Below are positions 42,001-45,000 of a stretch of 64,000 nucleotides of DNA, piece after piece (the first letter of the stretch is position 1; each line of letters opens with the position of its first letter). The DNA is from Ophelia neglecta (taxonomy: Eukaryota), in assembly GCA_965285935.1 (NCBI GenBank), contig OZ260663.1:75268001-75332000 (forward strand), in the 5' to 3' direction. The position numbers were made by a program.

Positions 42001-45000
42001 TTCAATGTCGTTTGTGCTCGGAAACTGTGTCCTTCACTTCAACTGTAGGGAGTATTTAATTCCTAACGAATTCGGACCGATTTAATTGACATTTCCTGAT
42101 TAATGATTTTGTATTATCTGACGGGTAGTGACTCAAATTTTTAAGATAAACACCAATATATATTCTACTACTGTGTTTTGCCGGTTTTCAAAACTCAATG
42201 GGTGCAAACTCTTCTCTTAACTAACAATCTTAATAGTGCAGAGGAAATGTTACCGTTTGAGGTGATGTCTAGCTGATGACAACTGATTTATATTAAACCA
42301 ATTTAATAACCACAGCACATTTGGATAAAACAACCAGTGATTAACATTAGTTCAGGGCGGATTACAGTTCATTTATGCGGACAACTCCGCATGGGGAACT
42401 GTGTAAGCACTAATGGAAAAACAAAATGTGATAACGTCATACTACTGCTATACATAATTAGCAAACATACCTTTTGGTGCCTCTTCTGTTTCACGAAATA
42501 CGACGTGTTTTTGACTGTTTTCCTCATTAATATACTCCATTGTATTTCTTATCTTTGAAAACTCAGGCCTTTCCTTTGGGTTTTCTTGCCAACATTGTTG
42601 CATGATAAGATAAAGTTGATTCGGGCAGCCGTCGGGTTTTGAATGCCGGTAGCCTTTCCTCACACTGTCAAGAACCTGCTTGTTGCTAAGCTTTTCTGAA
42701 ATTAAAGTAAAATTCACTCCTATTGAGGATCGCGTAAAATTGAATTGCCTACTTAAGCAAATACCCCAAGTGAAGGGACTCTTAAAGCAACATGTACCAT
42801 ACAAGAAGGCACTCAAACGGTTGGAATTAGTGAGGTTTGGAAATTATATTTGTATGTGTTGTAGTCGACTAGGTAATTGCATTTAAGGAAGTAATCACAA
42901 ACCGCTATGTAGTCTTAGAACAGACCTGGGTAAGGGATTTCTCCCTTTGTAAATATTTCCACCATTGTGATACCGTAAGACCAGACATCTGACTTGTGTC
43001 CGAATTGTCTTTTTAATATCGCTTCCGGGGCAGCCCAGCGAATGGGAAGCTGGACAGATTCATCTAGAATAAAGTATGCACAAATTGGTTACATGTGCAT
43101 GTCCCTCGTAAGCAGTGTATATTCCCGTAATATGCAAGATTACTGAGCAGGATATAGTCGGAAATTACTAATATGCAATTGGTAGTTAACTCACTGACAC
43201 TGTCAGAAAGAATTAATAAATTCTATAGTGAAAAGTATGGTTGTACTAGAAGGTCCTCTTATGATGTTAATTGGTTAATACGACAGGCTGCTTACAATAC
43301 AATTGAATTGCATTTTACGATGTTTTTATTTCGAGTTTTTATTTTACTTCAATTTAGATTTTGTATCAATTAGAATATGGTATATTATTCTCACCAGCTG
43401 TCGCATAGATAGATTCTTCCATCAGACGAGAGACGCCATAGAGACTGATTTTGACTCTGCGATTGGAGTCAACCATAACATTCCTGGCCGCTACATCTTT
43501 GTGAACAAATGAATGTTCCTCCAGATAGCTCATACCACAGACTATCTGCAGTTGAAAATATAAGATTAGTAACTTAATAAACGTATATGGTGGCCCAATG
43601 ACATAAATAATATTATTTTACAACATGGAATCAAATTAACGTCTGGTAATAAACTGGGGGTCAACAAGAAATTTTCGTTGTTGATAGGTTAACTCGATTT
43701 TTGTTCGTTTAGTGCTAAGTTACAGCACATATAATAAATTGCTAACCGTTTTAGTTTTATTAATAACTAATATTGGCTACCTGTGTGGCAATATCTATCA
43801 AAACCAAGAGGTCCAAGTCGGTTCCTGCGCCATCCCGAAGATAATGAAGCAGATCTCCATTTTCCATCCACTCAGTTATAATACTAATGAAGGATGCTCA
43901 AATAAATATTGACAAAACAAGCACCAAAAGAATTTCGTAGACAACTTTATTTGAGATGTTTAAAATGCTGGTTTCCATGGTAAAATAAAATGTGTTTATT
44001 AATTACCTGTAAGGTTCGCTTTCTACTACTATGCCATAAATGCGGAGTACATTGTTATGTTTCAAGGTCTTCATTTGTTTGCACGTATTTTCAAGTGTTC
44101 CTTTTTCCAACAACCCGTCTTTCAACACTCTCGCACATACAAGTAATGTGTCGTTGAAGTTCCCTACCGTATCGGATATATGAATAAGCTCTATTAATAA
44201 TTCAACCCGATTAACATGTGTGTGTGCGTGATGATCGAAAAGTCAGGCCTCACTGGTAAATAAAAGCCGTGAGGCCAGCGAGTCTTATGTTATTAATGAA
44301 TATGCATTACTGATACAGTAACGTTGGTCGCCCCCCTCAGTTTAAAGTTTAAGCATAATGACTTCAGCAACACAAATCTTACCCCGCCATACTTTTACTA
44401 GTTTCCCCTCGTGCACATTGTCTTTATATGTCAGGTAGTTTTCATCAATGGTGACTTTATTTTGAAAATTCTCACTCAAATCCCACAACATCGGGGGTTG
44501 TTTCTTGATGGGGTTCTCGATCAATTTCCCTGTGATTTTCAGACACTTCCTTTACATACGAGTATATGACAACAAATTTCTTATTTCCGCGAGGAGGCGA
44601 TATATGCTCTCAGTACTAGTACTATTATGCTGATAATAAGGTAGACAAAATGCCCACACAATTTTTAAGAAATTGGGTTTTAGCACTACAAAACATATCC
44701 TTCGGTAACAAAGTTTCTTACACAAGTTTCCCATGACCAATCAATTGTGTTTGTTGATAATGATAGTAACGCAACAGACCCACCTTGGTAGTGTTTTATC
44801 ATAGCTTCTAAGTTCTGAAAGACCTGGTCGCTTTTAATATGGTATCCCTTGGAGGAATGGATTGGGTACTCGGTGACGTATGGTCCTTTTGAAATGTCGT
44901 AGGACCGCAAAGACAAAACCAAGGAATCTGCAACACCTGAGTAACTTAGAATATCTTTTTTATACCTTTCTATACTGGTACAACTACGCAGAAACAGTCT

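What the first reader, a model, noticed from the sequence alone, without database searches (positions are those of the whole stretch)
42471..44529. Systematic loss of catalytic motifs in an otherwise intact kinase ORF
Seen: the G-loop reads VHEGKLVKV (only one Gly left), VAVK is VCAR (Lys to Arg), the alphaC Glu position is Thr (TCKQMKTLKH), HRD is HKD, and DFG is LYG. The frames, splice sites, C-lobe motifs and activation-loop Tyr (ESIYAT) are all preserved. Established: Lys to Arg is the classic kinase-dead change, and HKD plus loss of the DFG Asp resembles PTK7. Known tyrosine pseudokinases are mostly receptor-type or JAK JH2. Inference: this is a functional cytoplasmic Src-like pseudokinase rather than a pseudogene.
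Basis: partly seen in the sequence, partly recalled or inferred. Interest (0 to 1): 0.75.

Follow-up and report, generated by a model that had tools for sequence, protein, structure and literature searches.

The report
Intact Src-like kinase lacking catalytic residues
An intact, many-exon animal gene encodes a Src-type signalling protein whose kinase domain has lost the residues that hold ATP and magnesium, while a normal-looking sister gene sits beside it, so it most likely works as a scaffold and not as an enzyme.

Summary
Coordinates 42471-44529 (minus strand) are exactly six GT-AG exons of a tyrosine-kinase domain. Aligned to solved kinases and to a paralogue in the same window, the G-loop reads H-E-G-K-L-V, the beta3 Lys is Arg, the alphaC Glu is Thr, HRD is HKD and DFG is [23 protein letters not shown] and the activation-loop Tyr are kept.

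The gene is much larger than reported: about 11.4 kb and 18 exons. It runs from an MGCC start through two or three SH3-like domains, proline-rich linkers, SH2 and the pseudokinase to an acidic stretch and a C-terminal PHD finger. It has 856 whole codons and no in-frame stop.

A head-to-head paralogue, gene B (56922-63678, plus strand), shares the intron phases and the PHD tail but keeps VAVK, the alphaC Glu, HRD and DFG. By Pfam score gene A is weaker than B in the ATP-binding half and stronger in the last two C-lobe exons.

Best reading: a selectively maintained, catalytically dead Src-module scaffold. Expression, orthologues and biochemistry could not be checked.

The parts
52541..52627 (-). 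Gene A exon 1: candidate start codon at 52627, peptide MGCCDSKPEAQ... (Met-Gly-Cys-Cys acylation-type N-terminus), donor GTGAAT
   Evidence: An in-frame stop lies 16 codons upstream of the ATG. The link to exon 2 has two in-frame solutions and is not resolved.
51840..51958 (-). Gene A exon 2: N-terminal half of a degenerate SH3-like domain (SH3c). The acceptor is at 51960-59 (phase 0, fits exon 1's strong donor) or at 51935-34 (phase 1).
   Evidence: (SH3_2 15.0 bits, E 0.02, below cut-off)
49941..50195 (-). Gene A exon 3: degenerate SH3c C-terminal half plus a proline-rich linker (KPAAPPPR)
   Evidence: No Pfam family. Assigned by phase and position only.
49453..49565 (-). Gene A exon 4: Ser/Pro-rich linker containing RRPLPNKP (fits the R-x-x-P-x-x-P SH3-ligand pattern; the pattern is recalled)
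49164..49266 (-). Gene A exon 5: N-terminal half of SH3a (…FVALYDFDE…)
   Evidence: SH3_1 21.0 bits, E 2.5e-4, profile 1-23; 36% identical to B's SH3 N-half, E 4.9e-4
45708..45910 (-). Gene A exon 6: C-terminal half of SH3a (…GYVPMNFV…) plus linker
   Evidence: SH3_1 13.8 bits, profile 29-47; profile of three SH3 C-halves hits Fyn SH3 at E 1.8e-7
45477..45567 (-). Gene A exon 7: N-terminal half of SH3b (…VICDF…SFSKGD…)
   Evidence: phase, splice sites. No Pfam SH3 hit. Assigned by position and the same intron phase as gene B.
45238..45336 (-). Gene A exon 8: C-terminal half of SH3b (…GDWSHV…GFIPSNCI…)
   Evidence: (45% identical to B's SH3 C-half, E 7.4e-4)
45030..45133 (-). Gene A SH2 exon 1 (WYHGNLTRREA…YLVSKR): Ser where FLVRES has Arg
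   Evidence: SH2 19.0 bits; alignments to Syk and RasGAP SH2
44784..44936 (-). Gene A SH2 exon 2
   Evidence: SH2 16.9 bits, profile 35-77
44383..44529 (-). Kinase exon K1: SH2-kinase linker, beta1, degenerate G-loop (V-H-E-G-K-L-V-K-V), beta2
   Evidence: Positional alignment to B's I-G-D-G-N-F-C-T-V. No family or PDB match.
44007..44163 (-). Kinase exon K2: beta3 with VCAR (Arg for the catalytic Lys), alphaC with Thr for the Glu, beta4
   Evidence: (15.7 bits, profile 35-75)
43781..43883 (-). Kinase exon K3: beta5, hinge (IITEWM), alphaD
   Evidence: (13.5 bits, profile 78-109)
43395..43545 (-). Kinase exon K4: alphaE, catalytic loop HKDVAARN, LYG in place of DFG, activation loop with Tyr (ESIYATA)
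   Evidence: 54.2 bits; ungapped alignments to FAK and EGFR
42926..43063 (-). Kinase exon K5: P+1 loop PIRWAAPE, alphaF DVWSYG
   Evidence: 61.7 bits; Src-Abl ancestor E 1.6e-12
42471..42695 (-). Kinase exon K6: alphaG to alphaI (CWQENPKERP), ending at a phase-1 GT donor
   Evidence: 51.4 bits; Abl E 4.2e-13. The donor choice is supported by the matching downstream exons in gene B.
41755..41883 (-). Gene A acidic exon (…NLAFSDDE…), counterpart of B's …NVAFDSSDED…
   Evidence: 7/30 identical. Weak donor GTACTT.
41247..41509 (-). Gene A last exon: PHD finger (C-x2-C…C-x2-C-x4-H-x2-C…C-x2-C) and stop codon at 41247-41249
   Evidence: PF00628 24.7 bits, cut-off 24; DPF2 PHD E 3.4e-6; atlas PHD clusters, score 0.91
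41177..41182 (-). ATTAAA, candidate poly(A) signal 64 nt after gene A's stop
   Evidence: A consensus match only.
56922..63678 (+). Gene B, the catalytically canonical paralogue used as internal comparator. Candidate exon 1 56922-57030 (MGILCCK…); SH3 59310-59406 and 59748-59846; SH2 60024-60124 (GC donor) and 60364-60507; kinase 60916-61065 (IGDGNFCTV), 61381-61646 (VAVK, alphaC Glu), 61764-61914 (HRD, DFG), 62022-62165, 62903-63076; acidic 63203-63295; PHD 63428-63675; stop 63676-63678.

Best explanation
Gene A encodes a scaffold protein built on a Src-type SH3-SH2-kinase module whose kinase domain can no longer catalyse phosphotransfer.

Shown from sequence: the residues that clamp ATP (two of three G-loop glycines, and both partners of the beta3 Lys / alphaC Glu pair) and the residue that holds magnesium (the DFG Asp) are replaced. 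The tyrosine-kinase catalytic-loop frame (H-x-D-V-A-A-R-N), the P+1/APE segment, the alphaF-alphaI core and the activation-loop Tyr are kept. The reading frame, splice sites and exon composition are intact.

Inferred: after an old duplication, constraint was relaxed on the nucleotide pocket but kept on the C-lobe and on the interaction modules. The protein would then act by binding, not by catalysis:
- an N-terminal Met-Gly-Cys-Cys motif for lipid anchoring;
- two or three SH3-like domains and internal proline motifs;
- an SH2 domain;
- a kinase-shaped docking or allosteric module that may still hold tyrosine-containing peptides or be phosphorylated on its own loop Tyr;
- a C-terminal PHD finger.

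The most likely partners are the active neighbour paralogue (gene B) or that kinase's substrates. This last step is speculative.
For: Motif losses:
-. A's Arg and B's Lys fall on the same Src position, and so do A's Thr and B's Glu. HKD and LYG align without gaps to HRD and DFG of FAK and EGFR.

Intact gene:
- 18 exons and 17 introns with AG acceptors and GT donors in compatible phases.
- 0 stops in 856 coding-frame codons against 51 and 58 in the other frames; exon GC 0.439 against intron GC 0.350.
- An ATTAAA lies 64 nt after the stop.

Same exon plan as a canonical paralogue:
- Intron phases are identical at all 10 shared junctions from SH3 to PHD.

Uneven conservation (PF07714 bits, A versus B):
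- K2+K3: 15.7 + 13.5 versus 52.4.
- K4: 54.2 versus 72.4.
- K5: 61.7 versus 48.3.
- K6: 51.4 versus 45.3.
- Between the paralogues, pN is 0.52 in K1-K3 and 0.39 in K4-K6, with pS about 0.77 in both.

No hidden alternative exon with canonical motifs in gene A's introns.

Src-type module:
- A profile of the SH3 C-halves hits Src-family SH3 domains. All 60 chains shown are Fyn, Src, Yes, Lck or Fyn-derived binders, best E 1.8e-7.
- K2's best genuine hits are Lyn, PTK6 and Src.
- K5 and K6 hit the Src-Abl ancestor, Abl and Lck.
Against: - There is no evidence of transcription or translation and no orthologue.
- I chose the exon boundaries to be GT-AG and in phase, so their existence is a weaker test than it sounds.
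- Several donors are weak (GTACGA, GTACTT, GTCTGT, GTAGGG), and the exon 1/2 junction is ambiguous.
- K1 has no detectable similarity to anything.
- pN below pS between A and B reflects both lineages over the whole time since duplication and cannot exclude recent loss of function.
- The catalytic Asp and Asn are retained, so residual or unusual activity is not excluded.
- The comparison of Pfam bits for K2+K3 sets two short queries against one longer query and is only approximate.
Confidence: 0.6

Rival explanations
1. Gene A is a recently dead or never-expressed duplicate (a unitary or unprocessed pseudogene) that has not yet collected a stop or frameshift. The catalytic losses would mark the beginning of decay.
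For: There is no expression or orthologue evidence. Some donors are weak and the exon 1/2 junction is ambiguous. A 99%-complementary inverted repeat sits in intron 1, next to the exon 2 acceptor. K1 has diverged beyond recognition.
Against: - At least five separate changes at catalytic positions, plus an unrecognisable G-loop exon, imply a long time without catalytic constraint. Over that time 856 codons stayed open (0 stops against 51 and 58 in the other frames) and 17 introns kept usable sites.
- K5 and K6 score higher against the family profile than in the active paralogue.
- Decay would not spare [20 protein letters not shown] and CW..P..RP while removing exactly the ATP and Mg ligands.
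Confidence: 0.15
2. Gene A is still an enzyme that uses an unusual mechanism. It might use a lysine from elsewhere, metal-independent catalysis, or nucleotide binding as a switch without transfer, as reported for some proteins first called pseudokinases.
For: The catalytic base Asp (HKD), the catalytic-loop Asn and the tyrosine-kinase substrate-binding motifs are all retained. Passages of PMC7586955 and PMC5290486 note that sequence-based calls of inactivity can mislead (HER3, JAK2 JH2, the drl-1 and RYK cases).
Against: Four parts of the ATP/Mg site are hit together: the G-loop, both partners of the Lys-Glu pair, and the DFG Asp. Lys-to-Arg at this position is the standard kinase-dead substitution; one search's passage describes this use. 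The ATP-binding half shows relaxed conservation relative to gene B.
Confidence: 0.1
3. The picture is a gene-model artefact. The true transcript would skip these exons or use other exons carrying canonical motifs, or the upstream SH3 exons and the downstream PHD exon would belong to separate genes.
For: All models here are hand-built from one genomic window without RNA data. The SH3c and SH3b N-half exons have little or no family support.
Against: - tblastn with each of A's and B's exons finds no other kinase-like piece in gene A's locus.
- Every junction is in phase.
- The order kinase, acidic exon, PHD, stop recurs with the same phases in gene B. Chance phase agreement at two junctions in two genes is about 1 in 81 (my estimate).
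- K1-K6 match gene B's exon lengths and phases.
Confidence: 0.05

Closest known systems
Src-family kinases (Fyn, Src, Lyn, Lck) and the wider 'Src module' group
   Same: SH3-SH2-kinase order. The SH3 profile's best hits are Fyn, Src, Yes and Lck. The kinase exons' best genuine hits include Lyn, Src, the Src-Abl ancestor, Abl and Lck. The N-terminus is Met-Gly-Cys. The 'Src module' concept is described in passages of PMC8662651.
   Different: The beta3 Lys, alphaC Glu and DFG Asp are replaced and the G-loop is degenerate. There are one or two extra SH3-like domains and proline-rich linkers upstream. There is no short regulatory tail; an acidic stretch and a PHD finger follow instead. The SH2 lacks the FLVRES Arg.
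JAK JH2 domains
   Same: A pseudokinase domain of the tyrosine-kinase group in a cytoplasmic protein that also has an SH2-type domain.
   Different: JH2 sits in tandem with an active JH1 in the same chain, behind a FERM domain (recalled). Gene A has one kinase-like domain; the active domain is in a separate neighbouring gene.
Receptor tyrosine pseudokinases (PTK7, EphB6, EphA10, HER3, RYK, ROR1/2, STYK1)
   Same: A tyrosine-kinase fold that has lost catalytic-motif residues and signals without catalysis. The list of eight is in the abstract of PMC13259870, seen only in the search listings.
   Different: Those are transmembrane receptors. Gene A's kinase domain follows directly after SH3 and SH2 domains.
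Multi-SH3/SH2 adaptors (Nck, Grb2) and pseudokinase scaffolds (PEAK1, PEAK2, PEAK3)
   Same: This is what gene A probably works like: several SH3 domains plus an SH2 and proline motifs with no enzymatic output, or a dead kinase fold used as an assembly platform. The PEAK scaffold role is described in abstracts listed.
   Different: There is no sequence membership. Nck and Grb2 have no kinase fold, and PEAK proteins have no SH3 or SH2 domains of their own (recalled).
C. elegans pseudokinases outside the receptor guanylyl cyclases, including kin-32
   Same: Precedent that invertebrate kinomes hold pseudokinases in all groups. Passages of PMC5290486 report 9% of the kinome, 16 pseudokinases beyond the 27 RGCs, and kin-32 as experimentally inactive. 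That kin-32 is FAK-like and cytoplasmic is recalled.
   Different: It is not a Src-module protein and has no SH3-SH2-kinase-PHD layout.

Membership tests
Tyrosine-kinase domain (Pfam PF07714) | Collinear match to the family profile along the domain | tested here: met
   Exon by exon: K2 profile 35-75, K3 78-109, K4 112-155, K5 164-206, K6 208-257. 3 of 6 exons exceed the 23.1-bit cut-off on their own (54.2, 61.7, 51.4), 2 fall below it (15.7, 13.5), and K1 has no hit. Control: B's K1 also has no hit.
Tyrosine-kinase domain (Pfam PF07714) | Tyrosine-kinase-type catalytic loop (H-R-D-L-A-A-R-N) and P+1 segment (P-I/V-K/R-W-x-A-P-E); both consensus forms are recalled | tested here: met
   HKDVAARN and PIRWAAPE, aligned to FAK and EGFR and to the Src-Abl ancestor and EGFR. 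The only departure is Arg to Lys in HRD.
Catalytically competent protein kinase | Glycine-rich loop G-x-G-x-x-G | tested here: not met
   H-E-G-K-L-V against B's G-D-G-N-F-C. The alignment is positional: 9/47 identity, same exon length class and phases.
Catalytically competent protein kinase | beta3 Lys and alphaC Glu ion pair | tested here: not met
   Arg and Thr. They map to the same Src chain positions (48 and 63 of 2oiq_A) as B's Lys and Glu.
Catalytically competent protein kinase | Catalytic Asp of HRD and the catalytic-loop Asn | tested here: met
   H-K-D…N aligned to H-R-D…N of FAK and EGFR.
Catalytically competent protein kinase | Mg-binding Asp of DFG | tested here: not met
   L-Y-G aligned without gaps to D-F-G of FAK, EGFR and gene B.
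Pseudokinase | Sequence definition: kinase fold lacking at least one of beta3 Lys, HRD Asp, DFG Asp. The definition is quoted in the abstract start of PMC13519141 (listing). | tested here: met
   2 of the 3 are absent (Lys, DFG Asp).
Pseudokinase | Shown lack of phosphotransfer, and nucleotide-binding class | not testable with these tools
   Needs protein biochemistry. Even a fold of the whole domain would need joined exons, which was left out.
Src-family kinase | SH3-SH2-kinase order with a Src-type SH3 | tested here: met
Src-family kinase | N-terminal Met-Gly acylation motif (SH4); recalled as defining | tested here: inconclusive
   An MGCCDSK exon with an upstream in-frame stop exists, but its junction to exon 2 is unresolved and no transcript was seen.
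Src-family kinase | One SH3 domain, and a short C-terminal tail with a regulatory Tyr right after the kinase domain (recalled) | tested here: not met
   Two or three SH3-like units lie upstream. The kinase domain is followed by an acidic exon and a PHD finger.
JAK JH2-type pseudokinase | Tandem pseudokinase plus active kinase in one chain | tested here: not met
   Only one set of kinase exons lies in gene A's locus.
Receptor tyrosine pseudokinase (PTK7-like) | Kinase domain preceded by a transmembrane and juxtamembrane segment | tested here: not met
   K1 is spliced directly behind SH2 exons. No transmembrane prediction was run.
Pseudogene | In-frame stops, frameshifts or lost splice sites | tested here: not met
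   0 stops in 856 codons. All 17 introns of my model allow AG and GT in compatible phase. I chose the boundaries myself.
Pseudogene | No expression | not testable with these tools
   No transcript data were available.
PHD finger (PF00628) | C4-H-C3 zinc-ligand pattern and a profile match above cut-off | tested here: met
   A 24.7 bits and B 27.1 bits, cut-off 24. DPF2 and DPF3 PHD at E 3.4e-6 to 2e-5 with ligands in register. Atlas score 0.91 for PHD clusters.

The most novel reading that the evidence does not exclude
Genes A and B are the two halves of a previously undescribed family of lipid-anchored Src-module proteins that end in a PHD finger. In this family an old duplication produced a dedicated pseudokinase partner (A, with extra SH3 domains) that binds and regulates the active kinase (B) encoded head-to-head beside it. 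This would be a Src-type counterpart of JH2/JH1 or HER3/HER2, with a reader domain of the histone-tail type attached to membrane phosphotyrosine signalling.
Probability: 0.2. Interest if true: 0.75.

Novelty: new variant of a known kind. Interest (0 to 1): 0.5.

Why it matters
Kinase-independent scaffolding roles of Src-type kinases are usually studied with engineered Lys-to-Arg mutants. If this gene is expressed, nature has made and kept such a mutant, and the unaltered sister gene a few kilobases away is a built-in control. It would show that the SH3-SH2-kinase module can be selected for binding alone, and which parts of the fold that requires: the C-lobe is kept and the ATP pocket is free to drift.

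The C-terminal PHD finger shared by both genes, and the SH2 domains without the canonical arginine, point to a lineage-specific branch of phosphotyrosine signalling. I could not find this branch described in eight full-text searches.

The value is limited for now: the evidence is one genomic window from an unidentified animal-type genome, and pseudokinases are common (about 7-9% of kinomes according to passages of PMC5290486).

Tried and rejected
- K1 (G-loop exon): Pfam gave 0 families. PDB phmmer at E up to 10 gave 2 hits, both spurious repeats in CagY. The atlas gave no usable hit. I first read this as evidence of decay and then dropped that reading, because gene B's near-canonical K1 exon is also undetected by Pfam.
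- K2 PDB alignments: the 4 alignments printed were all spurious designer pentatricopeptide proteins; the 5 best table rows are such repeat proteins. I used the table coordinates for Src instead and confirmed them through gene B.
- dN/dS between A and B: synonymous sites are saturated (pS 0.67-0.95 per exon), so no usable omega. Only pN by region is reported.
- MAFFT alignment of the two PHD exons (A1) put the zinc ligands out of register. It was not used, and no structure prediction was run.
- A hand-read error in exon coordinates was corrected.
- An ORF in intron 5 (46928-47074) that read to me like a reverse-transcriptase fragment has no Pfam family, and neither do 4 other neighbouring ORFs and gene B's candidate first exon. 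I dropped that idea.
- Rfam found 0 families and ARAGORN 0 tRNAs in the window.
- Literature: 8 searches and term searches in 4 papers found no SH3-SH2-kinase-PHD protein and no Src-module pseudokinase. PMC8662651 has 0 occurrences of 'PHD'. PMC6997932, the pseudokinase catalogue by Kwon et al. 2019, is not held.
- Supplementary tables are closed. The kinome tables of PMC8662651 and PMC5290486 could list such proteins.
- Left out by rule: the joined (spliced) protein was never built, searched or folded. All searches were exon by exon.
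Full report
**What is at the coordinates.** The reported span lies on the minus strand of a window with 32-42% G+C and no N. It consists of six exons, K1-K6: 44529..44383, 44163..44007, 43883..43781, 43545..43395, 43063..42926 and 42695..42471. Each is bounded by AG and GT, with compatible phases. All the quoted peptides are there.

I do not take this contig for human. The genes have short introns in AT-rich sequence. Their best matches to human kinases are only about 40-60% identical even in the most conserved exons. 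The domain layout described below is not one I know from human.

**Exon-by-exon rule.** The joined, spliced protein was never built, searched or folded, so there is no whole-domain Pfam score and no structure model of the kinase domain.

**It is a tyrosine-kinase domain.** Against Pfam PF07714 the exons match collinearly:

| Exon | Bits | Profile positions |
|---|---|---|
| K1 | no hit | - |
| K2 | 15.7 | 35-75 |
| K3 | 13.5 | 78-109 |
| K4 | 54.2 | 112-155 |
| K5 | 61.7 | 164-206 |
| K6 | 51.4 | 208-257 |

Against solved structures:
- K4 finds 878 sequences at E up to 1e-3, led by FAK, Eph receptors, Abl, the Src-Abl ancestor and PTK6.
- K5 finds 890, led by the Src-Abl ancestor, FGFR2, Fyn, Src and Csk.
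- K6 finds 700, led by Abl and Lck.
- K2's top five rows are spurious designer repeat proteins. The genuine hits that follow are Lyn (E 0.0026), PTK6, the Src-Abl ancestor, Fyn and Src.

**The motif substitutions are real.**
- K4 aligns without gaps to FAK and EGFR, with HKD on HRD and S-L-Y-G on G-D-F-G or T-D-F-G. DVAARN and the activation-loop Tyr are in register.
- For the Lys and the Glu I used a comparator that turned up inside the window, described next.

**A canonical paralogue next door.** tblastn with each exon peptide found a second kinase gene on the plus strand. I read gene B through from the sequence:
- SH3: 59310-59406 and 59748-59846.
- SH2: 60024-60124, with a GC donor, and 60364-60507.
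- Kinase exons: 60916-61065, 61381-61646, 61764-61914, 62022-62165 and 62903-63076.
- An acidic exon: 63203-63295.
- A last exon 63428-63675 with its stop at 63676-63678.

B reads I-G-D-G-N-F-C-T-V, VAVK, an alphaC Glu, HRD and DFG. Its VAVK and Glu align on those of Csk. On Src chain 2oiq_A, B's Lys and A's Arg both map to position 48, and B's Glu and A's Thr both map to position 63 (coordinates). The direct A/B alignments agree.

The intron phases of A and B are identical at all ten shared junctions. A has one extra intron, between K2 and K3. The two genes are old duplicates: identity is 19-53% per kinase exon and synonymous sites are saturated, with pS about 0.77.

**The G-loop caveat.** K1 has no detectable relative by Pfam, by PDB at E up to 10 (2 hits, both spurious) or in the atlas. 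It is only 9/47 identical to B's K1. 'One glycine left' therefore rests on position, exon length and phase, and the final V-W-R-G against V-Y-E-G. B's nearly canonical K1 exon is just as invisible to Pfam, so the missing hit says nothing about decay.

**The gene is much larger than reported.**

*Downstream:*
- K6's phase-1 donor joins an acidic exon (41883..41755).
- That joins a last exon (41509..41250, stop at 41247-41249) encoding a PHD finger. Support: PF00628 24.7 bits against a cut-off of 24; DPF2 and DPF3 PHD fingers at E 3.4e-6 to 2e-5 with zinc ligands in register; atlas PHD clusters at 0.91.
- Gene B ends the same way, with PF00628 at 27.1 bits.
- The same order and phases in two paralogues that have diverged to saturation argue that the PHD finger belongs to the ancestral transcript.

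*Upstream:*
- Two exons of an SH3 right before the SH2 (SH3b).
- A linker.
- Two exons of another SH3 (SH3a; SH3_1 at 21.0 and 13.8 bits on complementary halves of the profile).
- Proline-rich exons containing RRPLPNKP and KPAAPPPR.
- A degenerate third SH3-like unit (15 bits for its N-half only).
- A first exon reading MGCCDSK, with an in-frame stop 16 codons upstream.

A profile of the three SH3 C-terminal halves hits Src-family SH3 domains. All 60 chains shown are Fyn, Src, Yes, Lck or Fyn-derived binders, and the best E is 1.8e-7.

The exon 1/2 junction has two in-frame solutions and stays unresolved. A candidate first exon of B (56922-57030, MGILCCK, with a fitting phase-1 donor) would put the two start codons 4.3 kb apart, head to head.

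**Pseudogene or maintained gene?** Evidence for maintenance:
- Gene A's 18 exons hold 856 whole codons with no stop. The other two frames of the same exons hold 51 and 58.
- Exon G+C is 0.439 against 0.350 in the introns.
- An ATTAAA follows the stop by 64 nt.
- No alternative exon with canonical motifs lies in the introns.

The most telling result is the uneven conservation relative to B:

| Exon | A (PF07714 bits) | B (PF07714 bits) |
|---|---|---|
| K2+K3 | 15.7 + 13.5 | 52.4 |
| K4 | 54.2 | 72.4 |
| K5 | 61.7 | 48.3 |
| K6 | 51.4 | 45.3 |

pN between the paralogues is 0.52 in K1-K3 and 0.39 in K4-K6. So the ATP-binding half and the HRD/DFG exon have drifted. The peptide-binding and structural half is at least as well kept as in the active sister.

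From the sequence and established kinase anatomy (recalled), the regulatory-spine positions also look preserved: the His of HKD, Tyr for the DFG Phe, the Met four residues after the alphaC position, and a Leu or Ile in beta4. This pattern is what a pseudokinase under selection shows and is not what neutral decay gives.

The limits are plain. I chose the splice sites myself, and several donors are weak. There are no transcripts and no orthologues. A recent death cannot be excluded.

**How it most likely works.**
- Shown: the nucleotide and metal ligands are gone, and the binding modules and C-lobe are intact.
- Inferred: the protein is a lipid-anchored adaptor that assembles partners through its SH3 domains, proline motifs, SH2 and PHD finger. 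It would use the kinase-shaped domain as a docking or allosteric surface, possibly for tyrosine-containing peptides or as a substrate through its loop Tyr.
- Speculative: its partner is gene B or gene B's substrates.

**A family trait, not part of A's degeneration.** Both SH2 domains lack the FLVRES arginine. A has Ser and B has Thr at that position in alignments to Syk, RasGAP and SHP2, and each has an Arg two residues later.

**Comparison with what is known.**
- Passages of PMC8662651 describe the Src module (SH3-SH2-kinase) and lineage-specific relatives such as the sponge family Src-Aque1. The paper never mentions PHD.
- Passages of PMC5290486 give 9% pseudokinases in C. elegans, spread over all groups, with kin-32 experimentally inactive.
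- Eight searches found no Src-module pseudokinase and no SH3-SH2-kinase-PHD protein.
- The pseudokinase catalogue by Kwon et al. 2019 is not held and supplementary tables are closed, so 'not described' is only as strong as those searches.

**Verdict.** I file it as a new variant of a known kind: a pseudokinase derived from a Src-type module, with an unusual multi-SH3 and PHD layout and an active paralogue beside it. Confidence in the maintained-scaffold reading is 0.6, and interest is 0.5.

Noticed in passing
window 56922-63678 (+): A second, catalytically canonical SH3-SH2-kinase gene (gene B) lies head-to-head with the reported one. It has the same intron phases and the same acidic-plus-PHD C-terminus. 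Its candidate first exon reads MGILCCK.
   Followed up: yes
window 41250-41509 (-) and 63428-63675 (+): Both kinase genes end in a PHD finger above Pfam's cut-off. I found no description of a kinase-PHD or SH2-PHD combination in eight literature searches.
   Followed up: partly
window 45030-45133 (-) and 60024-60124 (+): Both SH2 domains lack the invariant FLVRES arginine (Ser in A, Thr in B) and carry an Arg two residues later. This suggests a non-canonical phosphotyrosine pocket shared by the family.
   Followed up: partly
window 60125-60126 (+): Gene B's first SH2 exon appears to use a GC donor (CAG|GCAAGT). The nearby GT donor would run into a stop in the next exon.
   Followed up: no
window 51980-52102 and 52261-52387: A long inverted repeat (arms of 71 nt at 99% and 56 nt at 93% complementarity) sits in gene A's first intron, ending about 20 nt from the alternative exon 2 acceptor. 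It looks like a foldback or MITE-type insertion and may be why the exon 1/2 junction is unclear.
   Followed up: partly
window 28492-28509, 28580-28602, 28889-28906, 30175-30192, 30837-30853, 40295-40315, 51549-51574: Seven places carry runs of about 15 or more C (or G on the other strand) in a 36% G+C window: 30 overlapping pattern matches against 0 expected in shuffles. This is possibly part of a dispersed repeat.
   Followed up: no
window 37887-38168 (+): An open frame encodes a ubiquitin-family domain (PF00240, 61 bits, E 9.3e-17). It is probably one exon of an unrelated neighbouring gene.
   Followed up: partly
window 49453-49565 (-): Gene A's linker exon contains RRPLPNKP, which fits the R-x-x-P-x-x-P SH3-ligand pattern (recalled). 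This raises the possibility of intramolecular binding or of binding to gene B's SH3.
   Followed up: no
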